Source: Candidatus Poribacteria bacterium
GTDB taxonomy: Bacteria; Poribacteria; WGA-4E; WGA-3G
DNA length: 64,000 bases
NCBI GenBank assembly: GCA_965116815.1
Contig: OZ220722.1
Coordinates: forward strand, 671,050 to 735,049
Direction: 5' to 3'
Shown piece by piece: positions 21,989 through 37,262 of the stretch. The translations under genes and the position numbers were made by a program. Numbering within the stretch: the stretch's first letter is position 1; each line of letters begins with the position of its first letter. The notes below the pieces were generated by a model. That model saw only the letters and a program-made list of their open reading frames with translations. It had not been told where the DNA came from and searched no databases.

Positions 21989-22227
21989 ATTATATTTCGA
22001 TTTATGCACCATTTCTGCTCCAAAATTGCGTCTATAAATAAATCGTAAAGCGAGGATTTAAATTTAATCCTCTATCAGACTTACATTGTGGTAAACAAGT
22101 TTTTTAAGATTACGTTAAGTGTTGTATCATTCTTGAACCTAAAGAATATCCCTAAGATTGACGTAATCCCCCAAACATGTTATTATCTTTCAAGACTAAC
22201 GGATTTGAAAAAAAGGAGGACTTCACA

Positions 22228-23508
22228 ATGCCCCGTTCTTACTACACTTCTCTTGTGATTTTCGTGCTTCTGTTTACAACATCCCTCCAGAGTGTCGCGA
22301 CGACATTTTCAGGAAGGGTTGTAGACGAAGCCGGGAAACCCGTTTCTGGCATCAAGTTAGCACTTCCCGCATTCAGAGCCGCTACACCCCAAGACCAAGA
22401 TGAACCTGTGTTTATCCTTTCTCAACAGGATGAAACGAATGAGGCAGGTGAATTCCTGATTAGTGACATTGATTCCCCTTCAGTTCAATTGACACTACTT
22501 CCTGTTCATAATTCAGCGTATGAAATTCGCGTTGTCGAAATTGAGGGTGTAGCTTTCTATCCCAATGAACGCCAACGCCGTTTTGGTGGACTCACATTTG
22601 CTATTGCACCGGGAGCGGATGTTAAAGGCGTAAAGGTAATTGTCCGTCCTCGGATGCGGATTCGTGGACGCGTTCTCTCTGTAGACGGTACCCCGCTTCA
22701 AAATTTGCGGGTTGGCATCTCAATAAAAAGTCGTGATGTGGATGGCAGCGGTAGCGGTGGGAGTGCAGGCACAAGAGAGCTTGACCACGATGGTTATTTT
22801 GTGGAGTATGTGAATGACCCTGCCTATTATACTGTTTATGTTAGATATGAGGGACAGTCCGCAGAATCCGAGGAGATACTGCTTAAAGATGGTGAGCGGC
22901 ACGATGACCTCGTTTTGACCCTCGACGGTGCGCCGCCTCCCAAGCCGTTACCGGCAGTGGCTCGCATCCCTGACCCTGTGAGAGTACACTTTAAGGATGA
23001 CGAGAAGATTGCCAGGGAACGCTTTAAAGCCGCAGAGGAACGCAATCGACAAGGTGTATGGGCGATTAATCCTGAAAATCGGCATGCCTACAAAAGGATT
23101 TATTGTGAAACCCGTGAAGATGCGCGCGCCCAAGCTGCTGCCGAAGAGGCGCATCTCGTTGCCATCAACGATGAAGCGGAAGAGAAGTGGCTCCTTGAAG
23201 TTTTTGGAAAAGAATACTTTTGGATTGGACTGGCCGGTGCTTCAAAAGAGGATACTCCGCACTGGGATAACGGCGAACCGGTCACCTACACCAATTGGGC
23301 TTTTCCAGAGAAGATTGCTGCAGGTGAAAAATCGAGGCAAGATGAGGATGTCCATCGGAATTACACGCTCCTCGTAGGATTGACTGGGAAGTGGCAGGAG
23401 ACACGTCAGGATAGTTCCCTCGCACGTATAACTGGACAAGCCATTCTGGAAAAAGAGCGTTTCACCGTTGGATTACCGGAATTAGACGAGGATGTTGAAA
23501 AACGTTAA
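22228..23508 (+). CDS. Array member A1: secreted protein with two carboxypeptidase-regulatory-like beta-sandwich domains and a C-terminal C-type lectin-like domain (CTLD).
   Basis: RBS AAGGAGG. Signal peptide LVIFVLLFTTSLQSVA. SGRVVDEAGKPVSGIKL and RMRIRGRVLSVDGTPLQN are CarbopepD_reg-like. CTLD motifs HAYKRIYCETREDARAQAAAEEAHLVAINDEAEEKWL, WIGLAG, HWDNGEPVTYTNW. Confidence 0.8.
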   Translation: MPRSYYTSLVIFVLLFTTSLQSVATTFSGRVVDEAGKPVSGIKLALPAFRAATPQDQDEPVFILSQQDETNEAGEFLISDIDSPSVQLTLLPVHNSAYEIRVVEIEGVAFYPNERQRRFGGLTFAIAPGADVKGVKVIVRPRMRIRGRVLSVDGTPLQNLRVGISIKSRDVDGSGSGGSAGTRELDHDGYFVEYVNDPAYYTVYVRYEGQSAESEEILLKDGERHDDLVLTLDGAPPPKPLPAVARIPDPVRVHFKDDEKIARERFKAAEERNRQGVWAINPENRHAYKRIYCETREDARAQAAAEEAHLVAINDEAEEKWLLEVFGKEYFWIGLAGASKEDTPHWDNGEPVTYTNWAFPEKIAAGEKSRQDEDVHRNYTLLVGLTGKWQETRQDSSLARITGQAILEKERFTVGLPELDEDVEKR

Positions 23509-23536
23509 GTGCCCTAAAACGCAAGGAGGTGTTGAC

Positions 23537-24823
23537 ATGAACCGTACCTATATGACATCAAAGTTAGCCGTACTTGTATTGATGCTTTTGTCTGTTATAA
23601 CAGGTATTGCTGCAGCGGAAGAGATGCTTAGTGGATTTTCAGGGAAAGTTGTTGATTTGGAGGGGAAGGGTGTTGCTAACTTTACATTCGCCATTCAACC
23701 TATGCGATTACACAACGGCTCTCTGGTGCCAGATGATGAATTTATGCCGTGGCGAGCTGATTCAACGGGTGCTTTCACTGTCAGGGACATCCAGCTACGT
23801 CTGATTCAATTAAGCGCACTTCCCGACATCCCGCTGGATGTGTTCGATCCGGAGAAAGGGAAGATTCCGTTGGAATTTAGGTATCGCAGAATTGAGTCGG
23901 ATAAGAAAATCATCTCTATTCAAATAGGGGCGGTCACCCTCTTTAATATGGGTGATCCGGACTTTTATGAGGGACTCACGTTTGCCCTCAAACCCGGTGA
24001 GAATATTGAAAACGTTAAGGTTATTGTCAAACCGAGGCTTCGGATTCGTGGACGAGTTGTTTATGCCGATGGCGCGCCCCTCGCCAACGCCGGATTAGAT
24101 TTTGACATGGAATGGCGACATGAGACCCGTCTGAATCATAGTGGGAACAGCGGGGCACACCCTTTTACGGATGCCGATGGATACTTTGTCCAATATGTAG
24201 ATAAACCGGGGTTTTACACACTGTCCGTGGAACATAATGATCTTTCTGCAGGCGCAGGTCCCTTTCTGATCAAAGATGATGTGCAACCTGAGGAAATTGT
24301 CTTTACACTTGAAGGTAAGCCGGATGTTGTCGAACTGCCTCCCCCGAAGATTAAAGCCTCCGGTAAAATAAAATTCCAAGAACCATCCACGCCACCAGCG
24401 AAAGGTGTGTGGGTAATTAATCCTGCGAATGGACACGCTTACAAAAGGATTCAGTGTGAGGATTGGCACGATGCCCAGCGCAAGGCAGTTGAGGAAAGGG
24501 CTCACCTTGTCTCAATCAACGATGAATCGGAACAACACTGGGTTCAGGTAATTTTCGGAGGGGACCCTTTTTGGATCGGACTTACGGATGCGAAAAAAGA
24601 GGGTGAGTGGCAATGGGATAGCGGTGAACCCGTCACTTACACTAATTGGGTGGTCCATCCGATCCTCCGTGATAAATCTCCGGACACCGAGAAAGACTAT
24701 GTTGTGTTCACCTTTATCAGAGGAGAGTGGCAAGCTATCAGTCTCAAGAGCCTGTTATGGGCGGAAATCGCAAAACAGGCAGTCATCGAAAAGGACGGAT
24801 TGGTTTCTACTATCGATGAGTAG
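23537..24823 (+). CDS. Array member A2: same architecture (signal peptide, 2x CarbopepD_reg-like, CTLD).
   Basis: RBS AAGGAGG. FSGKVVDLEGKGVANF, LRIRGRVVYADGAPLAN. CTLD HAYKRIQCEDWHDAQRKAVEERAHLVSINDESEQHW, WIGLTDAKKEGEWQWDSGEPVTYTNW. Confidence 0.8.
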   Translation: MNRTYMTSKLAVLVLMLLSVITGIAAAEEMLSGFSGKVVDLEGKGVANFTFAIQPMRLHNGSLVPDDEFMPWRADSTGAFTVRDIQLRLIQLSALPDIPLDVFDPEKGKIPLEFRYRRIESDKKIISIQIGAVTLFNMGDPDFYEGLTFALKPGENIENVKVIVKPRLRIRGRVVYADGAPLANAGLDFDMEWRHETRLNHSGNSGAHPFTDADGYFVQYVDKPGFYTLSVEHNDLSAGAGPFLIKDDVQPEEIVFTLEGKPDVVELPPPKIKASGKIKFQEPSTPPAKGVWVINPANGHAYKRIQCEDWHDAQRKAVEERAHLVSINDESEQHWVQVIFGGDPFWIGLTDAKKEGEWQWDSGEPVTYTNWVVHPILRDKSPDTEKDYVVFTFIRGEWQAISLKSLLWAEIAKQAVIEKDGLVSTIDE

Positions 24824-24898
24824 GGCCTAATACTGTAGAAAAAGGCGACCTTGTCTTGTAAGCGCGTATAGTGAGCTCAAACCAGAGGGGATAGAAAA

Positions 24899-26158
24899 AT
24901 GACACGTCTGTATTTCGGAAAGAGAATTCTCACATTTTTTATCGGAATTGTCGCACTTTTCCTTTTAAGTGCGTCGGAGAGCGGCGCACAGAACGATGTG
25001 TTGACCACACTCTCCGGTCGCGTTATTGATGCAGCTGGACAGCCAATTGCCGGACTTACGGTAGCTATTGTTCCTGTCCAAGACGGTCATGGCGCATGGT
25101 TTCCAATTGAGTTTGAGGTCGAAGAAGGTGGACGGCAAGGCGATCCGATGGCGTTCCAAGGGGAAACCGATGCAGCAGGACGTTTCGTCATTACCGATGC
25201 CATTGTTGGTCCCGTGTTGTTAGGGTTGTTTCCGTATAATGGGCCGGAGATGGAAATTTTGAATGTCCAAATCGGCGATATGTTTCTCTATGCGCCTAAA
25301 GAATCGTGGGGACGTGGCGTTATATTTTCTGTGGAGCCGGGTAAGCGCATTGAAGACCTTGAGGTCACAGTGCAGCCTTTTCTACAACTCCGGGCGAAAG
25401 TTCTAAGGATGGACGGGAGTCCACTCGCCAATGCACAACGTATCAGGGTCGGGTTAAGGCGACTCAGTTTAGATGGAGAATACGATGGTAGTGGGAGATG
25501 GAACGCGGAGACGGATGACGAAGGAAACTTTGCACGATATATGACAAGATATATGAATGGTCCCATATTTTACTTCATGTCTGTGACATATCAGGAGCAT
25601 CAAGCGCAGTTAGATCCAATTGTGGTCAAACCCGAAGATCTAATTCAGGAGGTGGTCTTCACTTTCGAGGTCCCACTGCCCCCTGATATACCCCAGAACG
25701 CTCCTCGCGGTTTTCATGCTGGCGCGCCAGCGCGATTTGGTGGCGGGCTTAACGCGAAAGGTGTATGGGTTATCAATCCAGCAAATGGTCACGCCTACAA
25801 AAAAATCCGTTTTAACGGCGTGGAAGATGCTATTGCGCAAGCAGCCAAGGAAGATGCTTATCTCGTCACGATTAACGATGAAGCGGAACAAAACTGGTTG
25901 GATCAAGTTTTTGTTGCACATCGCGCTTTAATTGGGCTTAGTGATGTTGAAGAAGAGGGGCAGTGGCAATGGCATAGTGGGGAACCCGTCACATATACAA
26001 ATTGGGCAATGTATGAACCACAGGATACCGACAAAGGCGATGAAGATTATGTCATCCTGTTCGCCGACCAGTGGGTGGACGTTGGTCCCGGAGATGTCCA
26101 ATGGCGTTTTATTCAGTCCGCACTCCTTGAAAAAGAAGAAGCGTCTCTAAAGAAGTAA
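24899..26158 (+). CDS. Array member A3: same architecture.
   Basis: Signal peptide ending SGAQ. LSGRVIDAAGQPIAGLTV. CTLD HAYKKIRFNGVEDAIAQAAKEDAYLVTINDEAEQNWL...LIGLSDVEEEGQWQWHSGEPVTYTNW. Confidence 0.8.
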   Translation: MTRLYFGKRILTFFIGIVALFLLSASESGAQNDVLTTLSGRVIDAAGQPIAGLTVAIVPVQDGHGAWFPIEFEVEEGGRQGDPMAFQGETDAAGRFVITDAIVGPVLLGLFPYNGPEMEILNVQIGDMFLYAPKESWGRGVIFSVEPGKRIEDLEVTVQPFLQLRAKVLRMDGSPLANAQRIRVGLRRLSLDGEYDGSGRWNAETDDEGNFARYMTRYMNGPIFYFMSVTYQEHQAQLDPIVVKPEDLIQEVVFTFEVPLPPDIPQNAPRGFHAGAPARFGGGLNAKGVWVINPANGHAYKKIRFNGVEDAIAQAAKEDAYLVTINDEAEQNWLDQVFVAHRALIGLSDVEEEGQWQWHSGEPVTYTNWAMYEPQDTDKGDEDYVILFADQWVDVGPGDVQWRFIQSALLEKEEASLKK

Positions 26159-26176
26159 ACCCTAAAGGAGAAAACC

Positions 26177-27607
26177 ATGAAATGTTCGGAGTCTAAAAGG
26201 CACGTTTTGTTATTTTTGATGGTGATAGTCGCACTTTTTATCGGTTTCATTTCGCACGCTGTTGCGCAGAAAGATACGGGGAGCGTTACCGGACGCGTTG
26301 TCGATCTGAGTGGAAACCCAGTTGTCGAGTTACCGATATTTATTGCTCCTCTTTATGTTGATGGCACTGGATACATGCGGACAGTAATTTTACCGTATGA
26401 GCACGCACAGTTGCGCCGTGCACGCACAGACCGAGAAGGTCGATTTTCCGTAACGGATGTCCCCTCGGGTCCTGTGTACATCGGTGCCCTTCCGGACGAC
26501 ATAGATAAACGCCTGCCTGAAGACTTTGAAAGGGTTGTAGATGAGTTCACATCCGGCAGAGATTGGGGGAAGACCACAGCAGACGAGATAGAGGCATTCG
26601 ATTCCAGTAACTTCGGCATGACTTCAGAGGATTTTGAGCCAGACGTTGAAATTTTGTTCATTCGCGTCCAAGGATTAACCCTATACCCGCGTACCGATTT
26701 TGTTGAAATCGCGTTCGGTCTCAAATCCGGCGCGCTTATGAAGGATATGGAAGTCACAGTGCAACCTCGGATGCGAGTTCGCGGACGCGTCCTTTTCAAA
26801 GACGGAACACCACTTGCCAATACACGCGTCGGCCTCTACACTCATGCTCGTACTGTAAGTGGCGGCTCCATCGGCTCCGGTGGAAATTTATGGACGGACA
26901 CTGACGGCTATTTTGTTTATTATATAGATGAGAAGGATGATGCTGCGTTCTACACGTTTTCTGTGGAATACCAAGATCTTGTGGTAGAGGCTGAGCCGAT
27001 TCGCCTTGATCCAGGAGACCGGTTCGATGGGTTGACATTGACGTTTGATAGCGAACCGATTCCACCCAACCAACTGCCTCAAAAAATCGAAACTGACGAG
27101 TTGGAACCGCTTTCACCCGCATGGGAAGTCCCGTCAGTACCAACAGCATCTCATGACGTGTGGGTCGTCAATCCCGAAAATGGACACGCCTATAAAAGGG
27201 TTCACTGCGAAACTCGCGATGATGCGATTGCCCAGGCAACCGAAGAGAAGGCGCATCTCGTCGCGATTAATGACGCTGCGGAGCAGGCATGGTTGGAAGC
27301 GGTTTTTGGACACAAGTTCTATTGGATCGGACTCAGCCGCGTTCCTACAACAGGGACACTTTCTAAGCGAGCAAAAAAATGGTGGCAATGGGATAACGGC
27401 GATCCTATCACCTATGCCAACTGGTTACCCAATGAGTTCTTTTCTGAATCCTTGGATGCCAGTGAAAGAGACTATGCCGTCATGACGCTCTCTGATGGAA
27501 AGTGGTATGCGGTGAATCCCGACAGTGTTATCTGGGATATGACGGAGATGGCGATCCTTGAAAAAGCAGATGTACTTGACAATCCATCCGCTGCAGAAAG
27601 ACGATGA
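26177..27607 (+). CDS. Array member A4: same architecture, with a longer linker.
   Basis: RBS AAAGGAG. VTGRVVDLSGNPV, RMRVRGRVLFKDGTPLANTRV. CTLD HAYKRVHCETRDDAIAQATEEKAHLVAINDAAEQAWL...WIGLSRV...WWQWDNGDPITYANW. Confidence 0.8.
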   Translation: MKCSESKRHVLLFLMVIVALFIGFISHAVAQKDTGSVTGRVVDLSGNPVVELPIFIAPLYVDGTGYMRTVILPYEHAQLRRARTDREGRFSVTDVPSGPVYIGALPDDIDKRLPEDFERVVDEFTSGRDWGKTTADEIEAFDSSNFGMTSEDFEPDVEILFIRVQGLTLYPRTDFVEIAFGLKSGALMKDMEVTVQPRMRVRGRVLFKDGTPLANTRVGLYTHARTVSGGSIGSGGNLWTDTDGYFVYYIDEKDDAAFYTFSVEYQDLVVEAEPIRLDPGDRFDGLTLTFDSEPIPPNQLPQKIETDELEPLSPAWEVPSVPTASHDVWVVNPENGHAYKRVHCETRDDAIAQATEEKAHLVAINDAAEQAWLEAVFGHKFYWIGLSRVPTTGTLSKRAKKWWQWDNGDPITYANWLPNEFFSESLDASERDYAVMTLSDGKWYAVNPDSVIWDMTEMAILEKADVLDNPSAAERR

Positions 27608-27723
27608 ACACGACACATAACACCTTATTGCTTTTTTTATATCAACACCCTCGTATTTTTGGCAAAATTATGCACCAGTTTTACACCTCATAAGCGTCAC
27701 TATAGGGCAATCGGAGGTAATTC

Positions 27724-29775
27724 ATGAAAAACATCGATGTTGAACTCATTCACCGTGTGCTTGATGGCGATGATACCGCTTTCACTGAACTTGTGAAAAA
27801 ATACCAAAAGCCCGTTCACACGCTGGTGTGGCGTAAAATTGGAGATTTCCACATCGCCGAGGAAATTACGCAGGATACATTCTTAAAGGCGTATCAGGAA
27901 TTGGCAAAGCTGAAAAAACCACAGAGTTTTGCGAGTTGGCTTTATGTGATCGCTGCGAACCACTGCAGTACATGGCTGCGTAAAAAGCGTTTACAGACGC
28001 AGTCGCTTGAGGAAACGAGCAGTGCTCGATTAGAAAAGGCGACATATTCGGGGTATGTTGTTGAAGAAAATGAGCGGACAGCAGTGGAAGCACAACGCGA
28101 AGTCGTGAAAAAATTGCTTGCGAAACTCCAAGAGAGTGAACGCACAGTGCTCACACTGCATTACTTCGGTGAGATGTCCAGTACAGAGATTGGCGCGTTT
28201 TTAGGTGTGTCAGCAAATACGATTCGGAGTCGTCTCCGTCGTGCGCAGCAGCGTTTAAGGAAAGATGAACCGATGATTCGAGAAGCCTTGGCCAATTTTC
28301 AAATCACGCCGCATCTCACAGAAAATATCATGCGTGAGATTGCGCGTATGAAACCCGCTGCGCCGTCTGGCAGTAAACCGCTGGTGCCGTGGGCAATTAC
28401 GACGATTTCTACAGTAGCGGTGGTGCTTTTGATGTTAGGCGTTGGAAGCCATCAATACTTATCACGTGTCCAAAAGCCGTATAGTTTCGACGCAATGTCA
28501 GAGATGAGGGTTGAACTAATTGAGGCACCTGTTGTGCTAAATCTTGAGTCCAAACCGGGTGTTCAGACTCAACTTGGCGACAACGATGCAACCGGTAGAG
28601 ACAATAAGACGCATCAGAACTCTGATGCGACGCTATTTTCCTCCACCTCCGGTCACATCCTTAATGAAGCAGGCGAACCGGTTTCTGGGATCAAGATAGC
28701 GATTACACCTGTCGTAGATGGTAAAGGGGCTTGGTTTCCGATTCATGTGCAAGAGCGTGCTCTTGAAGATACGCGTGAACGCCACGTGGAGAGCGATGCA
28801 GAGGGGCGTTTTACTATCACCGGTGACATCTCCGGTCCTGTGTTGTTGTCGCTATTTCCGCTTCGCAGCTCGTCAGTCCGTATTTTAAGGGTTCAAATCG
28901 GCGGATTATTTTTCTATCCAAGCGGAATGATGGAGCGTGGAATTGTATTTGCCCCACCCCCGGGTGAATCCATTGCGAATATTGAAGTTACGGTACAGAG
29001 TCCGCACATCCGAGGGAGAGTACAACGCATAGATGGGAGACCAATCGCCAATGCAAAAATCAAACGCCGGTTGCGGACAGTAAGTCAGCACGGTGAGTCT
29101 TCTGGTTCTGGCAGTGTTCATACGGACGCTGAAGGATACTTTTCACACTATGTGGACAAGGATATAGAGCAACCAACATTTTACATGTTTTCTCTGACCT
29201 ATCAGGGGCAGACCGTCAATGCAGACCCGATTGTGCTTAAACCCGGGGATCCAACACACGACATCGTTTTTACCTTTGATAGTTTACCGGAAAAGCCTTT
29301 ACAAGCGCGGCGTGGAGTTTTCGCGAGCGCGTCCGCTTCAGTGGGTTATCGTGCACAAAATGTATGGGTGATAAAACCGGACTTTCCCCTACAAACTGGC
29401 GGGCATGCTTACAAGAAAATTAAGTGTGAGAATCGGGAAGATGCGAGAGCCCAAGCCGCCGCCGAAGGGGCGTATCTCGTCACAATTAACGACGAGGCAG
29501 AGCAGAAGTGGTTGCAAGCTGTCTTTGGAAATCAACCGATTTGGATTGGACTTAACGATGTTGCAACAGAAGGAGAATGGCAATGGGACAACGGCGAACC
29601 GCTTACCTATACCAACTGGGAATTTCAGGAACCCCATGACCCGAACAATGAGGCTGAGGATTATGTCATCCTTAATCCTTTAGGGAAATGGGAGGACAGT
29701 AACGCCAGAAATCCAAAATGGGGCTGGATTCGGACAGCACTCATTGAGAAGGAAACGTTACCCGTGAAGAAGTAG
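27724..29775 (+). CDS. Array member A5: ECF sigma-70 factor (regions 2 and 4) fused through one TM helix to an extracytoplasmic module of 2x CarbopepD_reg-like domains plus a CTLD (683 aa).
   Basis: RBS GGAGG. Sigma region 2 is DDTAFTELVKKYQKPVHTLVWRKIGDFHIAEEITQDTFLKAYQEL...WLYVIAANHCSTWLRKKR. Region 4 is SSTEIGAFLGVSANTIRSRLRRAQQRLRK. The TM helix is LVPWAITTISTVAVVLLMLGVG. After it come SGHILNEAGEPVSGIKI, and the CTLD HAYKKIKCENREDARAQAAAEGAYLVTINDEAEQKWL...WIGLNDVATEGEWQWDNGEPLTYTNW. Confidence 0.8.
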   Translation: MKNIDVELIHRVLDGDDTAFTELVKKYQKPVHTLVWRKIGDFHIAEEITQDTFLKAYQELAKLKKPQSFASWLYVIAANHCSTWLRKKRLQTQSLEETSSARLEKATYSGYVVEENERTAVEAQREVVKKLLAKLQESERTVLTLHYFGEMSSTEIGAFLGVSANTIRSRLRRAQQRLRKDEPMIREALANFQITPHLTENIMREIARMKPAAPSGSKPLVPWAITTISTVAVVLLMLGVGSHQYLSRVQKPYSFDAMSEMRVELIEAPVVLNLESKPGVQTQLGDNDATGRDNKTHQNSDATLFSSTSGHILNEAGEPVSGIKIAITPVVDGKGAWFPIHVQERALEDTRERHVESDAEGRFTITGDISGPVLLSLFPLRSSSVRILRVQIGGLFFYPSGMMERGIVFAPPPGESIANIEVTVQSPHIRGRVQRIDGRPIANAKIKRRLRTVSQHGESSGSGSVHTDAEGYFSHYVDKDIEQPTFYMFSLTYQGQTVNADPIVLKPGDPTHDIVFTFDSLPEKPLQARRGVFASASASVGYRAQNVWVIKPDFPLQTGGHAYKKIKCENREDARAQAAAEGAYLVTINDEAEQKWLQAVFGNQPIWIGLNDVATEGEWQWDNGEPLTYTNWEFQEPHDPNNEAEDYVILNPLGKWEDSNARNPKWGWIRTALIEKETLPVKK

Positions 29776-29806
29776 GTCTTATGCTTTATTCCAAAGGAGA
29801 GAAATT

Positions 29807-31138: not shown

Positions 31139-31234
31139 TAGTTGTAAAAGATGTTCCTGTTCATATATGAATATATCTTGTAGGGGCAGCCCTTGTGGCT
31201 GCCCGCTGTTCCTGTTCTAAAAGGAGAATTTATA

Positions 31235-32467
31235 ATGAATCTGCAAAGTTTCAAACAAAATTTTGGATTACTTTTGTTGGTGATGCTACTCTCCCTTCTG
31301 GTATCGTCGTCTGTTGTTGCCCAACAAGGTGCGACGATTTCTGGGCGCGTCGTTGATGAGCTGGGGAATCCGGTTGTCGGTACTTCGGTAGCACTCCATC
31401 GGTATAAAGCCATAGATGGTGATCAGAGAGGACGATTTGTGCCTTTCTGGCAAAAGCCGGTCGATTTAGATGGTCATTTTTCCTTCGTAAATATTGCGCC
31501 AACGGAGTCCGTTAGTTTTATCGTAGAAGATGAACGGACTAAAGGAAAAATCCTTTCTATCCAAATGGGTGAGCTCACCCTTTATCCGGGGGACCATCCA
31601 CATTTTGGTAAAGTAAGATTTTCCTTGGAAGCAGGGATGGAAATCGAAGACGTTGTCATCACGGTGAACACAAATATTCCGCCACAAGTCCGCGCGCGAG
31701 TCGTCTCTGCTGACGGTACACCGCTTGTCAACACAACTATATATGTTGCAGTGCAACGTAAAAGTCTGGATGGAACGGGCTCTGGCGGTTCTGGTGGCAC
31801 AAGACAGACCGATGCAGAAGGATATTTCGTAGAAGACCTGCAGGTGGACGATAATCCCAGATTCTATGTGCTTGGTGTTAAATATCAGGGGCTTTTTGCG
31901 AAAGCACCTCCTTTCATTTTACATGAAGGGCAACCGCAAGTTCATCTCCTTTTGACACTCAAAGGTAATCCAGATCCGCTTGCACGACCACCAGTACGTC
32001 CGCTGGTAGGTCCACCGTCCGCTGCATTAACGACGTTTCTTGATCCACCAACGGTGTGGATTGTGAACCCCGCGAATGGACACGCTTACAAAAAGATTCA
32101 TTGTGACGGTGTAACGGATGCGACGACCCAAGCCGCTGCAGAAAATGCGTATCTCGTTGCCATCAATGATGAAGCAGAAAATGAATGGTTGGAGGAAATC
32201 TTTGGGCGAGAACGTTTTTGGATTGGACTCAACGATGCCGCCGAAGAAGGACAGTTGGCTTGGGATAGCGGTGAACCTGTTACCTATACGAACTGGGGTG
32301 AACATGAACGAGCAGGTAACAACACTGAGGTGAATGACTACGTTATCTGGGGATTTGGCGGTAGATGGGAGATGGTCGCACTTGGAAGTGGGCATGCACA
32401 TTTTGTCAAAACAGCAATTCTCGAAACGACAGATGTCCCTGTTGAAACATCACCTGAGAATAATTAG
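31235..32467 (+). CDS. Array member A7: same architecture.
   Basis: RBS AAAAGGAGA. ISGRVVDELGNPVVGTSV. CTLD HAYKKIHCDGVTDATTQAAAENAYLVAINDEAENEWL...WIGLNDAAEEGQLAWDSGEPVTYTNW. Confidence 0.8.
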   Translation: MNLQSFKQNFGLLLLVMLLSLLVSSSVVAQQGATISGRVVDELGNPVVGTSVALHRYKAIDGDQRGRFVPFWQKPVDLDGHFSFVNIAPTESVSFIVEDERTKGKILSIQMGELTLYPGDHPHFGKVRFSLEAGMEIEDVVITVNTNIPPQVRARVVSADGTPLVNTTIYVAVQRKSLDGTGSGGSGGTRQTDAEGYFVEDLQVDDNPRFYVLGVKYQGLFAKAPPFILHEGQPQVHLLLTLKGNPDPLARPPVRPLVGPPSAALTTFLDPPTVWIVNPANGHAYKKIHCDGVTDATTQAAAENAYLVAINDEAENEWLEEIFGRERFWIGLNDAAEEGQLAWDSGEPVTYTNWGEHERAGNNTEVNDYVIWGFGGRWEMVALGSGHAHFVKTAILETTDVPVETSPENN

Positions 32468-32540
32468 CGACAACCCAACATTGGGTTTGCTTCCAGTTCG
32501 CCCCAATCTACATTTGTCTATTCTATAAGGAGAACTTACA

Positions 32541-33878
32541 ATGAATCGCTTAAGTTTCACACGTATTGCATACCTTTTCGGAGTTGTAATTGTACTCTCT
32601 CTCATTGCATCCGTTCCTTGTATCGCACAGGACGAGACAACACTCTCTGGTACCGTCCTTGATACAGAGGGGAAACCGATTGCTGGATTTGCCATTGGTC
32701 TTTTACAAGGTTCTCTCATATCGAAGACTGATGAAGAAGGGGCTTTCACCTTTACCAATATCCCTGCCGGACCGGTTCAAATTGCGATTCCAGCGCAGCC
32801 GTCCAAAGAAAATGAGAAGCCTGTATTCAACTTTGAGGCAGATGATGAGATCGTTTCAATCAAAATCAAGGGTGTAACGCTTTATCAGGACATGCGTCCG
32901 CCTTTCGGCGGTATCACATTCGGGGTCAAATCGGGCAGTCATATTGAAGACATAACGGTTACCGTACGTCCACGGATGCGAATTCGGGCGAGAGTCGTTT
33001 TCAAAGATGGGAAACCGCTAACGAATACTTCTGTTGCCACGCGAGTCGAAGGCGGTGGTGGTACGTCGACTGGAGGGGCTACTACGGACTCTGAAGGATA
33101 TTTTGTGCATTATATGGATAACGACGATGTTCCGGCACACTACACGGTCACCGTAAAATATAAAGGGCTCTCGGCGAAATCAGAGCAATTTTTGCTTGAA
33201 AAGGGTGCGCGCTATGATGATTTAGTCTTGACGCTTGATGGCGATGTACCGCCTGCTGCGCCACAAACGGAATCTCTGCCGAAAGTTTTGGATAAATTGA
33301 CTGGTGGATCGACACCATCTGAGAAACCGACACTCACCGAAACAAACCGCTCTGTACCGACTAACAAGGGACAAGTTAATATTCGAGAGGTGGAAGTAAA
33401 GCCTCGTGGAACAGATACTAAACCTGCTAACTCCGTTAGGCAGATGCGACCGCCGTGGGAGAAAGATGCGTGGGCTGTGAACCCGGCGAATGGACACGCC
33501 TATAAAAAGATTCGGTGCGACAGTCTGGATGAGGCACGAGATCAAGCCGCTGCGCAAGGTGCACACCTCGTCGCGATTAACGACGCAGCGGAGCAGGAAT
33601 GGATTTCGGGACTCTTTGGCAATCATCTCTATTGGATTGGACTCAGTGATGCTGAAAACGAAGGGGAATGGGCATGGCAGAACGGTGAGCCTCTCACCTA
33701 TACGAATTGGGGACCCAAGCACAGTTTCCCGCGGAGTCCACTTTCACCGGAAAAGAAGGACAGTGTTGTTATGACGTTTGCGAATGGACAGTGGCATGCC
33801 GTTGGTCCCGGTGACCTTTTTTGGCATAAGACGAAGATGGCAATCCTTGAAAAAGCAAACGTGCTTGATGGGAAATGA
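32541..33878 (+). CDS. Array member A8: same architecture.
   Basis: RBS AAGGAG. LSGTVLDTEGKPIAGFAI, RMRIRARVVFKDGKPLTNTSV. CTLD HAYKKIRCDSLDEARDQAAAQGAHLVAINDAAEQEWI...WIGLSDAENEGEWAWQNGEPLTYTNW. Confidence 0.8.
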   Translation: MNRLSFTRIAYLFGVVIVLSLIASVPCIAQDETTLSGTVLDTEGKPIAGFAIGLLQGSLISKTDEEGAFTFTNIPAGPVQIAIPAQPSKENEKPVFNFEADDEIVSIKIKGVTLYQDMRPPFGGITFGVKSGSHIEDITVTVRPRMRIRARVVFKDGKPLTNTSVATRVEGGGGTSTGGATTDSEGYFVHYMDNDDVPAHYTVTVKYKGLSAKSEQFLLEKGARYDDLVLTLDGDVPPAAPQTESLPKVLDKLTGGSTPSEKPTLTETNRSVPTNKGQVNIREVEVKPRGTDTKPANSVRQMRPPWEKDAWAVNPANGHAYKKIRCDSLDEARDQAAAQGAHLVAINDAAEQEWISGLFGNHLYWIGLSDAENEGEWAWQNGEPLTYTNWGPKHSFPRSPLSPEKKDSVVMTFANGQWHAVGPGDLFWHKTKMAILEKANVLDGK

Positions 33879-33934
33879 TATTTCTCGGACTCCGGTTTAT
33901 TTGGCATCTCAATATTGAAAAAAGGAGAATCTAC

Positions 33935-35326
33935 ATGAATCTTCAGCGTCTCGGTCTAAAACTTTGTATCCTCGTCGGGATTGTAGCGTTTTTCTTTACT
34001 ATTGCTGCTGACGTGCAGGCAGATCGCCCACAAATTCACGCGCGGGTCGTCCATGCTGACGGGACACCGCTTGTGAACGCGGATATATATGTTGCGGTGC
34101 TACGCAAAAGCTTGGATGCAGGCGGCTCCGGAGGTACAGGAAGTACAATGCAGACCGATGCCGCGGGATACTTTGTGGAAACTCTTAACGTAGGTAATAG
34201 CCCAAAATTCTATGTGGTTGGTGTTGCGTATCAGCGGCATCTCGCGAAAGCACCCCCTTTTATTTTGCAGGAGGGACAACCGGAAGTTCATCTACTCTTG
34301 ACACTTGATGAGAATCACGTTCCGCCAGATAGATGGGGATTTGATCAAGTACATACTACATTAAAAGCATTTCTTGAACCCCCAACGGCGTGGGTAGTGA
34401 ATCCTATAAATGGGCACGCTTACAAAAGGATTTATTGTCACGATGTAATGGATGCGATGACCCAGGCTATTACAGAAGGTGCTTATCTTGTTTCCATTAA
34501 CGATGAAGCAGAGGAGATATGGATACAAGGAGTCTTTGAACCAGATAGTTTTTGGATCGGACTCAGCGATGTCACTAAGGAGGGGCAGTGGGTCTGGCAC
34601 AGTGGTGAACCGGTTACGTATACCAACTGGGGAGAGAATAAACAAAACGGTGGTAACACCGAGGCGAACGATTACGTTATCTCTGATTTTGGTGCCGAAT
34701 GGTTGTCGGTTGCGCCGGGAGATGCCCCTTTTGTCGAAGAGGCAATCCTCGAAAAAGCGGAGTTACCCGTTAAGACGCAATCTGATAAACAAACCGATGT
34801 CCAGCCAACTGGTGTCTCAATACCACCGAATAAAACTATCGCCACTCAAGCCAGTCGTTCTGTCCCACCTCAGAAAATAAAGTCCCTTTTAGAGATAGGT
34901 GTATGGGCTGTGAACCCCGCAAATGGACACGCGTACATAAAGATTTGGTGCGAAAGTCTGGACGATGCGAGAGATAGTGCCGCTGCCCAAGGGGCACACC
35001 TCGTCGCTATTAACGATGTAGCGGAACAGCAGTGGCTTTTAGGGCTCTTTGGGAATCACCTCTATTGGATTGGACTCAGTGATGCAAAAAAAGAGGGTGA
35101 ATGGGTATGGCAGAACGGTGAACCACTTACTTATGAAAATTGGGGATCCAAGTATAAATTTCCGCGTAGTGCTCTCTCACCGGAAGAGAAAGACAGTGCT
35201 GTTATGACGTTTGCGAATGGACAGTGGCATGCCGTCGGTCCCGGTGATCTGCTCTGGAATACGACTCGACAGGCAATCCTTGAAAAAACAGACGTGTTTG
35301 ACAGTCCTCCTGTCAAAGAAAAATAA
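33935..35326 (+). CDS. Array member A9: chimeric paralog. It has a signal peptide, only the second beta-sandwich domain, and then two CTLDs in tandem.
   Basis: RBS AAAAGGAGA. N-terminal half RPQIHARVVHADGTPLVNADIYVAV...FILQEGQPEVHLLLTL is ~80% identical to the A7 interior. CTLD-1 is HAYKRIYCHDVMDAMTQAITEGAYLVSINDEAEEIWI...WIGLSDVTKEGQWVWHSGEPVTYTNW. CTLD-2 is HAYIKIWCESLDDARDSAAAQGAHLVAINDVAEQQWL...WIGLSDAKKEGEWVWQNGEPLTYENW, about 85% nt identity to the A8 CTLD. Confidence 0.75.
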   Translation: MNLQRLGLKLCILVGIVAFFFTIAADVQADRPQIHARVVHADGTPLVNADIYVAVLRKSLDAGGSGGTGSTMQTDAAGYFVETLNVGNSPKFYVVGVAYQRHLAKAPPFILQEGQPEVHLLLTLDENHVPPDRWGFDQVHTTLKAFLEPPTAWVVNPINGHAYKRIYCHDVMDAMTQAITEGAYLVSINDEAEEIWIQGVFEPDSFWIGLSDVTKEGQWVWHSGEPVTYTNWGENKQNGGNTEANDYVISDFGAEWLSVAPGDAPFVEEAILEKAELPVKTQSDKQTDVQPTGVSIPPNKTIATQASRSVPPQKIKSLLEIGVWAVNPANGHAYIKIWCESLDDARDSAAAQGAHLVAINDVAEQQWLLGLFGNHLYWIGLSDAKKEGEWVWQNGEPLTYENWGSKYKFPRSALSPEEKDSAVMTFANGQWHAVGPGDLLWNTTRQAILEKTDVFDSPPVKEK

Positions 35327-35430
35327 TGGTTTTGAATCTACAATTGTTTCGTTCCGTGTTCACTTCTTCCCAGACAATTTTTTCCAATTAATTTGTCAGT
35401 CATTCCCACAAAGTCTACAGAGACATTCAG

Positions 35431-35479
35431 TTTTCCTGTAGGAGCGACCTTCCAGTCGCTATACCTCGGCTGTTTCTCC
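35431..35479. repeat. Copy 2 of the ~49-bp repeated element (see 21940-21988), 125 bp upstream of array member A10.
   Basis: Seen directly; shares the core ctgtaggagcgacct. Confidence 0.5.
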
Positions 35480-35605
35480 AGTCCAAGATGGACGCGTGTA
35501 CAAAGCGGACCGAGTAACACTTGTGGGAGAGGTTTCTTGTGGAAATCCGCAGAAACACCCAAGCAAAAACATCCGAATCTCTTCCCCCTAAGAAGGAAAT
35601 GGCTT

Positions 35606-36352
35606 ATGAGCAGCCGAAAGCTTTTGGATAAAATAGTGGTCATCCCCCTTGTTATTTTGGTTTCTGCCTTGCTGGGTTGTGGTGAAACTATAGAAACTAT
35701 AGAAATAGACAGAGCGAGTTTTTCAGGACGCGTTGTTGATGAAACTGGAAATCCGATTGCTGGACTTGCGTTAGTCATTGTACCCTGTGAAGTTGATGAT
35801 GCCAGTATAGCGGTTTACGACGCGCAGACCAATGATACAGGTCATTTCTCTATCACGGGTATCTATCCCGGAAAAGCTGATTTCATGTTAGTGCCTGAGT
35901 ATCAGAATGGTCTACCTCTTGAGCCGGAATATCAACTTCTTTCCTTTAAAATCGGGGTTTCTGATTACCATCCGAAAGACCTATCCCTTGATCCTTGCAC
36001 TCAGGACACCTTTTTTATCGGGTCGGGTGCGCGAATCGAAAACGTAGAGGTCACGGTGCGACTCCGGATGCGGATTCGAGCGAAAGTCGTTTTGGAGGAT
36101 GGTACACCCTTGGCAGACAAAAAGGTTAGCCTCAACATAAGGGCGTTCGATTCGCAAAGAAGTCGTGTTGTTGGAGGTATCCAGGGATCTGTGCAGACCG
36201 ATGCTCAAGGATACTTTGTGCAGTATGTAGATAGGAGCGAGGCAATTGGCTATAGGGTGTCAGTTGAATATAAATGGCTTTGCGCAACATCGGAGATATT
36301 TATACTCGGAGTTAGGGAACGTCGCGAAGATCTGATTTTGAAGTTAAGTTGA
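35606..36352 (+). CDS. Array member A10: short lipoprotein form with the two CarbopepD_reg-like beta-sandwich domains only and no CTLD.
   Basis: Lipobox LLGCGE (signal VVIPLVILVSALLGC). FSGRVVDETGNPIAGLAL, RMRIRAKVVLEDGTPLADKKV. It ends at the conserved EDLILKLS boundary where the other members continue into the linker and CTLD. The ORF-track start (35393) is too far upstream; the ATG at 35606 has a weak RBS. Confidence 0.65.
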   Translation: MSSRKLLDKIVVIPLVILVSALLGCGETIETIEIDRASFSGRVVDETGNPIAGLALVIVPCEVDDASIAVYDAQTNDTGHFSITGIYPGKADFMLVPEYQNGLPLEPEYQLLSFKIGVSDYHPKDLSLDPCTQDTFFIGSGARIENVEVTVRLRMRIRAKVVLEDGTPLADKKVSLNIRAFDSQRSRVVGGIQGSVQTDAQGYFVQYVDRSEAIGYRVSVEYKWLCATSEIFILGVRERREDLILKLS

Positions 36353-36464
36353 AGTTGCCAAGTGCTCCCAAGTGAAATATGACACTTTCAAGACTATAAA
36401 CCGGAAGTTTCAGAAGTGAGACCGGTGTGTCTTGGGTTATCCATATAAAGGAGAAGAGTTAACT

Positions 36465-37262
36465 ATGAGTCGTCAAAACTTCTTACATGAAATGGTGGTG
36501 ATTTTCTCTGTAATTGCAATCTGTACCCTGTTGGGTTGTGGTGAAACTGAGGATACGTCCTCCGCTATGTTGTCAGAGACCGTGATGGGGGGAGACACAA
36601 CGAGTTTTTCGGGGCGTGTTGTTGATGAAGATGGGAATCCGGTTGCTGGGCTTGCCTTGATCATTCAGCTTCGCGAAGTTGACGATAATACTGGAGCGCG
36701 GACGTACGGTCCTAATTTAGAAGCGAAGACCGATGATGCAGGACATTTCTCTATCACAAATATTCGTCCCGGGCAATTTCAATTCATGTTGGCGCGTGAC
36801 TATGGGAACAGTCTGCTTTTTGAAACGGAATATCAACTCCTTTCTGTCAAAATCGGGGCTTTCGCCTATCATCCGAGTGACCGGTTCCCTCCTGCTTTTA
36901 CTAAAGATACTCTTTCTATCACTCCAGGCGCGGAAATAAAAAACGTAGAGGTCACGGTGCGGCTCCGAATGCGGATTCGCGCGAAAATTGTTTTTGCGGA
37001 TGGCACCCCCTTAGCAAACAAGGAAGTTAGGATCGATATAAAAGGGCGGGATTTACACGGGGATGGGAGTGCAAAAATTGGTACTACATGGGAGACTGAT
37101 GCCCGAGGGTACTTTATACAGTACATGGATGCAAATAGGACGAGATCCTATACGGTGTCAGTGGAGTATAATGGGCTTTCCGCAACGTCGGAGAAGTTTG
37201 TACTCAAAGTCGGGGAACGCCGTGAAGATTTGATTTTGAAGTTGTCGGGTCCTCCTCAGTAA
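36465..37262 (+). CDS. Array member A11: short lipoprotein form (two beta-sandwich domains, no CTLD). Close paralog of A10.
   Basis: RBS AAGGAGAAG. Lipobox LLGCGE. FSGRVVDEDGNPVAGLAL, RMRIRAKIVFADGTPLANKEV. Ends ...EDLILKLSGPPQ. Confidence 0.7.
   Translation: MSRQNFLHEMVVIFSVIAICTLLGCGETEDTSSAMLSETVMGGDTTSFSGRVVDEDGNPVAGLALIIQLREVDDNTGARTYGPNLEAKTDDAGHFSITNIRPGQFQFMLARDYGNSLLFETEYQLLSVKIGAFAYHPSDRFPPAFTKDTLSITPGAEIKNVEVTVRLRMRIRAKIVFADGTPLANKEVRIDIKGRDLHGDGSAKIGTTWETDARGYFIQYMDANRTRSYTVSVEYNGLSATSEKFVLKVGERREDLILKLSGPPQ

What the first reader, a model, noticed from the sequence alone, without database searches (positions are those of the whole stretch)
22228..37262. 15-kb co-directional tandem array of 11 paralogous secreted CarbopepD_reg-CTLD proteins
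Eleven consecutive plus-strand genes sit within about 15 kb, separated by only 20-170 bp. They share one architecture: a signal peptide or lipobox, then two carboxypeptidase-regulatory-like (transthyretin/Ig-like) beta-sandwich domains. Nine copies also have a linker and a canonical C-type lectin-like domain, with W-I-G-L, EGEW-W-xxGEP and xTYTNW motifs and an HAYK...AHLV.INDxxEQxW N-terminal half. Several pairs are only about 35-50% identical, so this is an old and diversified family rather than a recent amplification. An expanded, clustered family of cell-surface or secreted glycan-binding modules is not a standard described operon type. It suggests a dedicated carbohydrate or host-surface recognition system.
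Basis: partly seen in the sequence, partly recalled or inferred. Interest (0 to 1): 0.85.

Follow-up and report, generated by a model that had tools for sequence, protein, structure and literature searches.

The report
Sponge-symbiont C-type lectin gene array
A Poribacteria (sponge-symbiont phylum) genome carries a conserved row of eleven related exported proteins, nine of them tipped with an animal-style C-type lectin domain. One is fused to a membrane-bound sigma factor that probably switches the row on when its own lectin head meets its target.

Summary

- Gene 5 has no signal peptide. It is an ECF sigma factor, one transmembrane helix, and the same beta-sandwich plus lectin ectodomain.
- Gene 9 has one sandwich and two lectin domains.
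- The canonical calcium/sugar signature (EPx...ED...WxD) survives only in genes 3 and 5. Glycan binding is therefore unproven for most members.
- An ECF-type promoter motif, ATGCACC-N17-GCGTC, sits upstream of gene 1 and gene 5. It recurs upstream of sigma-fusion orthologues in other genomes.

The window is from Candidatus Poribacteria. Arrays of the family occur in all eleven related genome loci read, and the five that show both flanks keep the same chromosomal slot. Each paralogue has its own orthologues (50-89% identity, against 27-62% between paralogues) and its own conserved binding-loop signature. This points to an old, subfunctionalised set.

Best reading: a self-regulated battery of exported binding proteins controlled by a lectin-headed, membrane-tethered sigma factor. 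The ligand is unknown. I found no description in the searchable literature. It is a new variant of known kinds.

The parts
21940..21982 (+). 43-nt hairpin-containing repeat (copy 1), 22 nt upstream of the ECF-like -35 element
   Evidence: Direct repeat family D18. Exact 14-mer found twice in the window against 0.23 expected. Conserved together with the promoter as one block of about 140 nt in L001 and L010.
22004..22032 (+). ECF-type promoter-like motif ATGCACC-N17-GCGTC, 196 nt upstream of the g1 ATG
   Evidence: The same motif lies upstream of the array head in L001 and L010.
22158..22186 (+). Sigma-70-like promoter candidate (TTGACG-17-TATTAT, with TG) close to g1
   Evidence: Consensus scan. 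Conserved in L010. Function untested.
22228..23508 (+). g1: signal peptide, two beta-sandwiches, linker, C-type lectin domain
   Evidence: Orthologues in L002, L003, L005, L006, L008, L009.
23537..24823 (+). g2: same architecture (longest ORF starts at 23492; likely start is the MNRTYM methionine)
24899..26158 (+). g3: same architecture; lectin domain keeps EPQ...DED...WVD (canonical-like calcium site); closest paralogue of the g5 ectodomain (47%)
26177..27607 (+). g4: same architecture, with an insertion in the loop after WIGL; closest paralogue of g6 (52%)
27670..27698 (+). ECF-type promoter-like motif ATGCACC-N17-GCGTC, 25 nt upstream of the g5 ATG, followed by a GGAGG ribosome-binding site
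   Evidence: The intergenic region has 86% mean column identity across 4 genomes. Motif hits. A metagenome scan placed 4 of 6 hits directly upstream of g5-type genes. A variant, ATGCAAC-N17-GAGTC, precedes both sigma fusions of L017.
27724..29775 (+). g5: ECF sigma factor (aa 1-185), juxtamembrane helix, one TM (aa 219-243), two beta-sandwiches, linker, C-type lectin domain
   Evidence: Pfam and NCBIfam. Hydropathy. Full-length orthologues down to 44% identity.
27724..28278 (+). g5 sigma2-sigma4 domains
   Evidence: PF04542 48.3 bits, PF04545 46.3 bits, TIGR02937 96.7 bits. 97% identical to the L002 orthologue.
28378..28452 (+). g5 single transmembrane segment
   Evidence: The only Kyte-Doolittle peak of at least 1.6 in the protein. 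P219, P222, W223, M237 and G239 are invariant in 38 orthologues.
29362..29772 (+). g5 C-type lectin domain with QEPH...AEDY...WED
   Evidence: Lectin_C 54.2 bits. EPx/ED/WED is conserved in about 55 orthologues. It aligns to EPS...EDC...WAD of mannose receptor CTLD2.
29807..31138 (+). g6: signal peptide, two sandwiches, linker, lectin domain
31235..32467 (+). g7: same architecture (longest ORF starts at 31193)
32541..33878 (+). g8: same architecture; the modelled member
33935..35326 (+). g9: signal peptide, one sandwich, two lectin domains; a chimera of a g7-like part (60%) and a g8-like lectin domain (62%)
   Evidence: Orthologues in L002, L004, L007, L009. Absent from L010.
35422..35464 (+). 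43-nt repeat (copy 2) in the gap of about 279 bp before g10
35606..36352 (+). g10: lipoprotein (LLGC lipobox) with two sandwiches and no lectin domain
36465..37262 (+). g11: lipoprotein (LLGC lipobox) with two sandwiches and no lectin domain

Best explanation
The locus is an old, vertically inherited module found so far only in Poribacteria. It combines a battery of exported binding proteins with its own sensor-regulator.

Shown:
- Eight proteins (g1-g4, g6-g9) carry a Sec-type signal peptide, a stalk of one or two transthyretin/Ig-like beta-sandwiches, a proline-rich disordered linker, and a Cys-poor but otherwise canonical C-type lectin-like head.
- g10 and g11 are lipoproteins made of the stalk only.
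- g5 places the same stalk and head outside the membrane. It joins them, through one transmembrane helix and a conserved juxtamembrane segment, to a cytoplasmic ECF sigma factor.
- Each paralogue has its own orthologues and its own conserved long-loop sequence. The set therefore looks like about eight fixed, different binding specificities.
- An ECF-type two-block motif (ATGCA[C/A]C-N17-G[C/A]GTC) precedes g5 in every genome examined. In this lineage it also precedes g1.

Inferred:
- The lectin head of g5 binds an extracytoplasmic macromolecule. Calcium-dependent binding is plausible, because the EPx/ED/WED residues are kept.
- Binding triggers proteolytic release of the sigma domain, as in IutY and as proposed for SCO4117.
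- The released sigma transcribes g5-g9 and g1-g4 from the two motifs. This is positive autoregulation, and it loads the periplasm or cell surface with the paralogous binding proteins.
- The most likely targets are glycans, glycoproteins or other matrix components of the sponge mesohyl. The ligand itself is not known.
For: Architecture.

Taxon and conservation:
- All named homologues and all 9 genome loci are Candidatus Poribacteria.
- Arrays of 6-11 members occur in all 9 loci.
- The array sits between the MR_MLE dehydratase gene and pyrB in the window and in L001, L010 and L017.

Orthology: identity to the orthologue is 50-89%, against 30-50% to the next paralogue. Lineage-specific loop signatures are conserved across 6-100 orthologues.

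Sensor head: EPx...EDY/C...WED is conserved in about 55 g5 orthologues. It aligns with the calcium-site segment of mannose receptor CTLD2.

Promoter:
- The g5 upstream region has 86% column identity in 4 genomes whose proteins are 71-94% identical.
- The motif occurs 9 times in loci fetched by protein similarity, against 0.16 expected. All 9 are upstream of a sigma fusion or of the array head.
- In a metagenome scan, 4 of 6 hits fall directly upstream of g5-type genes.
- The motif form is kept in L017, where the sigma fusion is only 50% identical.

Precedent: sigma factors fused to transmembrane, extracytoplasmic extensions and activated by proteolysis are known, namely IutY (ECF243) and SCO4117 (ECF52, with a carbohydrate-binding domain) (PMC8999054).
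Against: - There is no expression, binding or cleavage data.
- The promoter assignment rests on motif form and conservation only.
- The g1 motif is 196 nt from the ATG, with a sigma-70-like site in between.
- No strict motif and no in-array sigma fusion was found in the fetched parts of L003, L006, L008 and L009. In those genomes a g5-like ectodomain occurs without the sigma module, so the coupling is not universal.
- Most lectin heads lack the canonical sugar site.
- Export beyond the periplasm is unproven.
- The AlphaFold model of g5 was too poor in the sigma and TM region to show any autoinhibitory contact.
- About 75-83% identical sigma cassettes are fused to other ectodomains. Promoter specificity may therefore be shared with other sensors.
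Confidence: 0.55

Rival explanations
1. Nutrient-foraging accessory system, analogous to a polysaccharide utilisation locus. The exported lectin proteins capture a host or environmental polysaccharide. The sigma fusion senses the same polymer. The divergently transcribed neighbours (GH172/DUF2961, two xylose-isomerase-like TIM barrels, an MR_MLE sugar-acid dehydratase) catabolise the products.
For: The upstream neighbours are carbohydrate-catabolic. The same neighbours flank the array in L010 and in the distant L017. ECF sigma/anti-sigma pairs regulate polysaccharide utilisation loci in Bacteroidota (established knowledge).
Against: No transporter, TonB-dependent receptor or secreted glycoside hydrolase lies inside the array. 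The downstream neighbours, pyrB and pyrD, are equally syntenic, so conserved adjacency may only reflect genome collinearity. The ECF motif was not found in front of the catabolic genes. Most heads lack the sugar-site residues.
Confidence: 0.15
2. Host-mimicry effectors (eukaryote-like proteins). The secreted lectin proteins imitate or block sponge lectin-based recognition, so that the symbiont is not phagocytosed. The sigma fusion is an unrelated domain-shuffling product that happens to sit in the array.
For: The heads are closest in sequence and fold to animal lectin domains. The family is found only in a phylum dominated by sponge symbionts. Eukaryote-like proteins are a recognised theme in sponge symbionts (PMC3909097).
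Against: The nearest lectin domains outside the family are Cys-poor bacterial ones, from a Deltaproteobacteria MAG and a Synechococcales MAG. There is therefore no sign of recent transfer from the host. The sigma fusion and its promoter motif are conserved within the array down to 50% identity, which argues against a bystander. No dedicated secretion system gene lies in the locus.
Confidence: 0.15
3. Self-directed envelope or matrix proteins. The lectin heads bind the bacterium's own surface polysaccharide or cross-link a capsule. The g10 and g11 lipoproteins anchor the assembly through stalk-stalk contacts. g5 works as a classical envelope-state sensor.
For: Two stalk-only lipoproteins are retained in most genomes. 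ECF sigma factors classically monitor the envelope (established knowledge). The heads are under purifying selection, 81-91% between orthologues.
Against: No polysaccharide-synthesis genes are adjacent. Eight distinct head types are hard to explain with one self ligand. g11 is decaying and g9 is absent in the close relative L010, so the parts are dispensable.
Confidence: 0.1
4. A hypervariable receptor array (diversity-generating retroelement targets with a C-type lectin fold), or a recently amplified or horizontally acquired island.
For: Diversity-generating retroelement variable proteins use a C-type lectin-type fold (established knowledge). The array is repetitive at the protein level.
Against: No reverse transcriptase was found in any sizeable ORF of the window. 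DNA copies are only 60-81% identical and there is no template/variable repeat pair. The match is to Lectin_C, not FGE-sulfatase. The loops are conserved within orthologous groups. GC content is the same as the flanks. The chromosomal position is conserved in distant genomes.
Confidence: 0.01

Closest known systems
Animal long-form C-type lectin-like domains (mannose-receptor family, collectins, CD23, SRCL)
   Different: There are 0-1 cysteines per domain, so neither canonical disulfide is present. Most paralogues have replaced the EPN/WND residues with lineage-specific loops. The context is a bacterial exported protein with transthyretin-like stalk domains.
ECF sigma factors fused to a transmembrane, extracytoplasmic extension (IutY/ECF243; SCO4117/ECF52, which has a carbohydrate-binding domain; WD40-bearing ECF57)
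   Same: g5 has sigma2 and sigma4, one TM helix and a large external domain. An ECF-like promoter lies in front of its own gene. Sister fusions in Poribacteria carry WD40 or BNR heads (PMC8999054).
   Different: The external domain is a C-type lectin-like domain on a two-sandwich stalk. No zinc-finger anti-sigma domain is detectable and the cytoplasmic linker is only about 35 aa. The sensor is embedded in an array of secreted paralogues of its own ectodomain. ECF group membership was not determined.
Intimin/invasin adhesins (Ig-like Big_1 repeats capped by a C-terminal C-type lectin-like domain)
   Same: A beta-sandwich stalk is followed by a C-terminal lectin-like head that would carry the binding site. 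g8 reaches the Big_1 cutoff (36.2 bits against 34.9).
   Different: There is no outer-membrane beta-barrel anchor or LysM domain. The head is of the Lectin_C type, not the Intimin_C type. A 30-80 aa disordered linker separates stalk and head.
Eukaryote-like protein families of sponge symbionts (ankyrin, TPR, LRR, WD40, fibronectin III, cadherin)
   Same: An expanded family with a typically eukaryotic domain and export signals, in a sponge-symbiont phylum (PMC3909097).
   Different: Lectin domains are not among the families listed in the Poribacteria papers checked. This family is a syntenic, orthology-structured array with its own regulator, not a dispersed repeat-protein expansion.
Diversity-generating retroelement variable proteins and FGE-sulfatase-type C-type lectin folds
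   Same: They share the general C-type lectin-like fold class.
   Different: There is no reverse transcriptase, no template/variable repeats and no PF03781 match.

Membership tests
C-type lectin-like domain (Pfam Lectin_C PF00059 / CTLD fold) | Sequence match above the curated Pfam threshold | tested here: met
   36.7-87.8 bits against a cutoff of 22.6 in g1-g9.
C-type lectin-like domain (Pfam Lectin_C PF00059 / CTLD fold) | Alpha/beta double-loop fold superposable on solved lectin domains | tested here: met
C-type lectin-like domain (Pfam Lectin_C PF00059 / CTLD fold) | Two conserved disulfides (C1-C4, C2-C3) | tested here: not met
   0-1 Cys per domain. The nearest bacterial relatives are also Cys-poor.
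Calcium-dependent carbohydrate-recognition domain (functional C-type lectin) | EPN or QPD motif, a conserved Glu, and WND at the primary calcium site | tested here: inconclusive
   The g5 lineage has QEP[H/N/D/G/Q/S]D...EDY/C...WED and the g3 lineage has EP.D...EDY...W.D. g1, g2, g4 and g6-g9 lack these residues. Binding was not testable.
ECF (group 4) sigma factor | Sigma2 and sigma4 domains without sigma3 or sigma1.1 | tested here: met
   PF04542 48.3 bits, PF04545 46.3, PF08281 46.0, TIGR02937 96.7 against 42.9. All lie within aa 1-185.
ECF sigma factor with fused transmembrane anti-sigma-like extension (IutY / SCO4117 type) | TM helix after sigma4 and an extracytoplasmic domain in the same polypeptide | tested here: met
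   Single hydrophobic segment at aa 219-243. Sandwiches and lectin domain lie C-terminal to it. The architecture is conserved in more than 80 orthologue clusters.
ECF sigma factor with fused transmembrane anti-sigma-like extension (IutY / SCO4117 type) | Activation by regulated proteolysis that releases the sigma domain | not testable with these tools
   Only a conserved external juxtamembrane segment, shared with sister fusions, hints at a common processing site.
ECF sigma factor with fused transmembrane anti-sigma-like extension (IutY / SCO4117 type) | Autoregulated ECF-type promoter upstream of its own gene | tested here: inconclusive
   A conserved ATGCA[C/A]C-N17-G[C/A]GTC motif lies upstream of every sigma fusion examined. 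No transcription data.
Intimin/invasin family | N-terminal outer-membrane beta-barrel anchor, with Big_1/Big_2 repeats and an Intimin_C head | tested here: not met
   No barrel or Intimin_C hit. Big_1 is marginal and only in g8.
Diversity-generating retroelement target | Nearby reverse transcriptase, and a template/variable repeat pair differing at adenines | tested here: not met
   No RT domain in the window ORFs scanned. The best intra-array DNA repeat identity is 81%.
FGE-sulfatase-type lectin fold (PF03781) | Pfam FGE-sulfatase match, or a top structural match to FGE or DGR variable proteins | tested here: not met
Known anti-phage defence systems (PADLOC) | Match to a defence-system protein model | tested here: not met
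   g5 and g8 have no PADLOC hit at E of 0.001 or better.

The most novel reading that the evidence does not exclude
g5 is a bacterial 'C-type lectin receptor'. It would be a single-polypeptide transmembrane receptor whose lectin head reads an external, possibly host-derived, ligand and directly delivers a sigma factor to RNA polymerase.

It would be one head of a poribacterial cassette system. A nearly invariant sigma-TM-juxtamembrane module (74-83% identical between paralogues) is recombined with interchangeable sensor heads: lectin, WD40, BNR/sortilin-like and unknown domains.

The array of secreted paralogues would then be the output, and perhaps also tune the input by competing for the ligand. 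Together they would form a host-sensing circuit that parallels animal pattern-recognition receptors.
Probability: 0.3. Interest if true: 0.8.

Novelty: new variant of a known kind. Interest (0 to 1): 0.62.

Why it matters
Poribacteria are among the most abundant and still uncultivated sponge symbionts. How they perceive and hold on to the host matrix is an open question.

This locus offers a concrete and testable handle:
- a conserved set of about eight distinct lectin-type binding heads;
- a sensor that couples one such head directly to a sigma factor;
- a defined candidate promoter.

All of these can be tested in heterologous hosts without cultivating the symbiont.

It also shows that the Lectin_C-type domain, best known from animals, has been built into a bacterial transcriptional signalling protein. 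It points to a wider family of sigma factors with swappable sensor heads in this phylum. If the ligand is a sponge glycan or matrix protein, these would be the first symbiont-side receptors identified for that symbiosis.

Tried and rejected
- Diversity-generating retroelement: rejected. No reverse transcriptase and no near-identical repeat pair.
- Recent transfer of the lectin domain from the sponge host: not supported. The nearest relatives outside the family are Cys-poor domains on long metagenome contigs, and the two that carry names are bacterial (Deltaproteobacteria and Synechococcales MAGs). GC content equals the flanks.
- AlphaFold model of full-length g5: mean pLDDT 56, with the sigma and TM regions below 50. 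It was uninformative about autoinhibition, and only the ectodomain folds were reproduced.
- The 43-nt repeat as a regulon-wide operator: its exact core is absent from the other loci. It is conserved only in the closest relatives, and related hairpins occur in L017. It looks REP-like and is unresolved.
- Search for the ECF motif in front of other window genes, including the catabolic neighbours and g10: none at 1 mismatch or fewer.
- Exact look-up of the window's g5 protein in public assemblies: not on record.
- Defence-system models: no hit for g5 or g8.
- tRNA and Rfam scans of the window: nothing.
- Literature searches for Poribacteria with lectin, sigma or carboxypeptidase, and checks of three Poribacteria genomics papers: no mention of this family.

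Full report
OBSERVATION.

Eleven + strand ORFs fill 22177/22228-37262. I call them g1-g11:

| Gene | Coordinates |
|---|---|
| g1 | 22228-23508 |
| g2 | 23537-24823 |
| g3 | 24899-26158 |
| g4 | 26177-27607 |
| g5 | 27724-29775 |
| g6 | 29807-31138 |
| g7 | 31235-32467 |
| g8 | 32541-33878 |
| g9 | 33935-35326 |
| g10 | 35606-36352 |
| g11 | 36465-37262 |

Intergenic gaps are short, apart from one of about 279 bp before g10. An HMM built from the family finds no further member elsewhere in the window.

Pfam Lectin_C is above its gathering score in g1-g9, and twice in g9. CarboxypepD_reg is detected in all eleven. Pairwise identity between paralogues is 27-62%.

Three corrections apply:
- g5 is not a signal-peptide protein. 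Its first 185 residues are an ECF sigma factor (Sigma70_r2, Sigma70_r4; TIGR02937 96.7 bits against a cutoff of 42.9). Its only hydrophobic segment is at aa 219-243.
- g9 has one sandwich and two lectin domains. It looks like a fusion of a g7-like and a g8-like copy.
- The lectin domains have 0-1 cysteine.

FOLD.

An AlphaFold model of g8, built on 51 homologues, gives two beta-sandwiches (aa 34-130 and 134-231). These are followed by a disordered proline-rich linker (240-308, pLDDT below 50) and a confident C-terminal domain (310-440, pLDDT 80-92).

BINDING SITE.

The scaffold is invariant among the ten domains. The long-loop region after TYTNW differs between paralogues.

I grouped 278 domains from homologues by best window paralogue. 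Each lineage then shows its own conserved loop:
- the g8 and g9c2 lineages have KH.FPRS.LS.E.KD...GQWHAVGPGDLFW;
- the g4 and g6 lineages have LP.DFFSE..DA.ERDY...GKWYAV;
- the g7 and g9c1 lineages have GGNTE.NDY.

Only the g5 and g3 lineages keep a canonical-like primary calcium site. About 55 g5 orthologues read QEP[H/N/D/G/Q/S]D...EDY/C...GKWED. This segment aligns residue for residue with 'gepshennrqedcvvmkgkdgywad' of mannose receptor CTLD2. From memory, it also matches 'EPNNAGSDEDC...WND' of human MBL; that is a lead, not a test.

Glycan binding is therefore plausible for g3 and g5 and unproven for the others.

ORGANISM AND CONSERVATION.

More than 1000 homologues of g8 were found. All those that carry a name are Candidatus Poribacteria. 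All nine genome loci found are Poribacteria MAGs or chromosomes.

Every locus carries an array of 6-11 family members. In the window and in L001, L010 and L017, the array lies between the MR_MLE dehydratase gene and pyrB/pyrD.

Each window paralogue has a clear orthologue in other genomes, at 50-89% identity. The next-best paralogue scores 30-50%. Gene order is largely the same. The duplications therefore predate the divergence of these lineages, and each copy has been kept.

There is some turnover:
- [g3, g4] and [g5, g6] look like a two-gene duplication.
- L010 lacks g9, has a fragmented g11, and has an IS1595 element inserted between the promoter block and g1.
- L017 has a transposase inside the array.

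Between window and L002 orthologues, the lectin heads of the secreted proteins are the best conserved part (81-91%). In g5 the sigma domain is 97% identical but the head only 72%.

The nearest lectin domains outside the family score 80-143 bits per domain, against 190-212 within it. They are Cys-poor, mostly multi-domain proteins on metagenome contigs. The named ones come from a Deltaproteobacteria MAG and a Synechococcales MAG. GC content equals the flanks. I see no evidence for recent acquisition from the host.

THE SIGMA FUSION.

Full-length orthologues of g5, with sigma, TM, sandwiches and Lectin_C, extend down to 44% identity.

The first 300 or so residues comprise sigma2-sigma4, a short juxtamembrane helix (ITPHLTENIMREI), the TM helix, and a conserved external segment (FQKPYSFDA.SEM.VELIEAPV.LNLE). 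These residues are 74-83% identical to the N-termini of other poribacterial proteins of 970-1150 aa. The ectodomains of those proteins are WD40 propellers, BNR/sortilin-like domains or unknown.

Poribacteria thus have a sigma-TM cassette with swappable sensor heads. g5 is the version whose head is a paralogue of its array neighbours.

Sigma factors fused to transmembrane, extracytoplasmic extensions are known. Where studied, they are activated by proteolysis: IutY (ECF243), and SCO4117 (ECF52), which has a proline-rich region and a carbohydrate-binding domain. WD40-bearing ECF57 is another fused type (PMC8999054).

PROMOTER MOTIF.

The 116-bp region upstream of g5 has 86% mean column identity in four genomes whose g5 proteins are 71-94% identical. 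It contains two invariant blocks, TTATGCACC and AAGCGTCACTATA, followed by a GGAGG ribosome-binding site.

The same two-block pattern, ATGCACC-N17-GCGTC, occurs once more in the window. It lies at 22004-22032, upstream of g1.

Across the window and the loci fetched by protein similarity, ATGCA[AC]C-N17-G[CA]GTC occurs 9 times against 0.16 expected. All occurrences are on the array strand, and all lie upstream of a sigma fusion or of the array head.

A scan of public metagenomes with a 19-base version gave six hits. Four lie directly upstream of g5-type genes. The other two are short unrelated contigs.

In L017 the sigma fusion is only 50% identical. Both of its sigma fusions are preceded by ATGCAAC-N17-GAGTC.

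A -10 element of the CGTC type and a -35 element of the (G)CAAC/CACC type, 17 nt apart, is the usual form of ECF promoters (established knowledge). I read this as the autoregulated promoter of g5 which, in this lineage, also drives g1-g4. This is inference from conservation. There are no transcription data.

MODEL.

Shown:
- export signals on ten proteins, and the N-in, C-out topology implied for g5;
- the lectin fold;
- lineage-specific conserved loops;
- synteny;
- the conserved motif.

Inferred:
- the head of g5 binds an external macromolecule;
- the sigma domain is released by regulated proteolysis;
- the sigma then transcribes both operon-like blocks, loading the envelope with a panel of binding proteins of fixed, different specificities.

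The stalk-only lipoproteins g10 and g11 may anchor or organise these proteins. This is speculative.

Given the organism, the likely ligands are sponge-matrix glycans or glycoproteins. A nutrient-foraging role linked to the adjacent GH172/isomerase/dehydratase genes cannot be excluded. Nor can a host-mimicry role or a self-envelope role.

COMPARISON AND NOVELTY.

The parts are known kinds: C-type lectin-like domains, transthyretin-like stalks, ECF sigma fusions, and eukaryote-like proteins in sponge symbionts. I found three things described nowhere:
- a sigma factor with a Lectin_C sensor head;
- its placement inside a conserved array of secreted paralogues of that head;
- the poribacterial lectin-domain family itself.

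Literature searches and three Poribacteria genomics papers contain no mention of lectin, sigma or ECF in this context. NCBI names the proteins 'hypothetical', 'carboxypeptidase regulatory-like domain-containing' or 'sigma-70 family RNA polymerase sigma factor'.

I rate it a new variant of known kinds, with interest 0.62.

DEAD ENDS.

- The AlphaFold model of g5 was poor in the sigma and TM part.
- The 43-nt repeat next to the g1 promoter, repeated before g10, is unexplained.
- No diversity-generating retroelement, no defence-system match, and no tRNA or Rfam features were found.

Noticed in passing
g5 aa 1-300 (window 27724-28620); proteins P0216-P0240: The sigma-TM-juxtamembrane cassette of g5 is 74-83% identical to the N-termini of other poribacterial proteins of about 970-1150 aa. 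Their ectodomains are WD40 propellers, BNR/sortilin-like domains, or have no Pfam match. L015 carries three such fusions in tandem. This suggests an expanded family of membrane-tethered sigma factors with shuffled sensor heads.
   Followed up: partly
window 21940-21982 and 35422-35464; L017 9700-9770: A 43-nt element containing CTGTAGGAGCGACC...GTCGC occurs upstream of g1, next to the ECF-like motif, and upstream of g10. Related GTAGGGACGGGG...CCCGTCC hairpins occur in tandem upstream of the sigma fusion in L017. It may be a REP-like element or an operator; unresolved.
   Followed up: partly
window 48009-50020: A low-GC stretch (0.398 against about 0.48) holds an AAA_15/AAA_21 ATPase followed by a DUF4435 protein. 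They match PADLOC AriA (E 7e-28) and AriB (E 1e-10). This is a PARIS-like anti-phage defence pair, probably acquired horizontally.
   Followed up: partly
window 42032-42739 (- strand): A Peptidase_M50B-like membrane metalloprotease lies about 5 kb downstream of the array. It is worth noting because sigma release is usually done by M50-type site-2 proteases. No link has been shown.
   Followed up: no
window 1714-9042 (- strand): A giant 2442-aa ORF with only patchy Pfam coverage: a faint LysM match, Peptidase_M28, and an FtsX-like permease C-terminal domain. This is an unusual combination.
   Followed up: no
window 13504-17499 (- strand) and 46281-47963 (+ strand): Large ORFs of 1331 aa and 560 aa have no Pfam match at E of 0.001 or better.
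   Followed up: no
window 44166-44630 and 44630-45202: A CHAD domain is split over two adjacent ORFs (profile positions 5-128 and 166-227). This may be a frameshift or a split gene.
   Followed up: no
window 58319-59656 and 59810-60502 (- strand): Two ORFs without Pfam matches share internal DNA repeats of 200-290 nt at 73-88% identity (repeat families D6 and D8). They are a small local paralogue and repeat-protein family of unknown function.
   Followed up: no
window 53214-55499 (- strand): A 761-aa protein combines TPR repeats with two AhpC/TSA-thioredoxin-like modules. The two modules are also visible as a 300-nt DNA repeat at 71% identity (D11).
   Followed up: no
L010 3194-4069 and 17242-18048; L017 13837-14805: Mobile elements are reshaping the array in relatives. 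In L010 an IS1595 transposase sits between the conserved promoter block and g1, g11 is split into two fragments and g9 is missing. In L017 a DDE transposase sits between two [sigma fusion + lectin protein] units.
   Followed up: partly
L003, L004, L006, L009 (for example L003 4189-5448): In these genomes, a protein whose ectodomain is most similar to that of g5 (58-59%) occurs without the sigma-TM cassette. The cassette has therefore been gained or lost on this paralogue during poribacterial evolution.
   Followed up: partly
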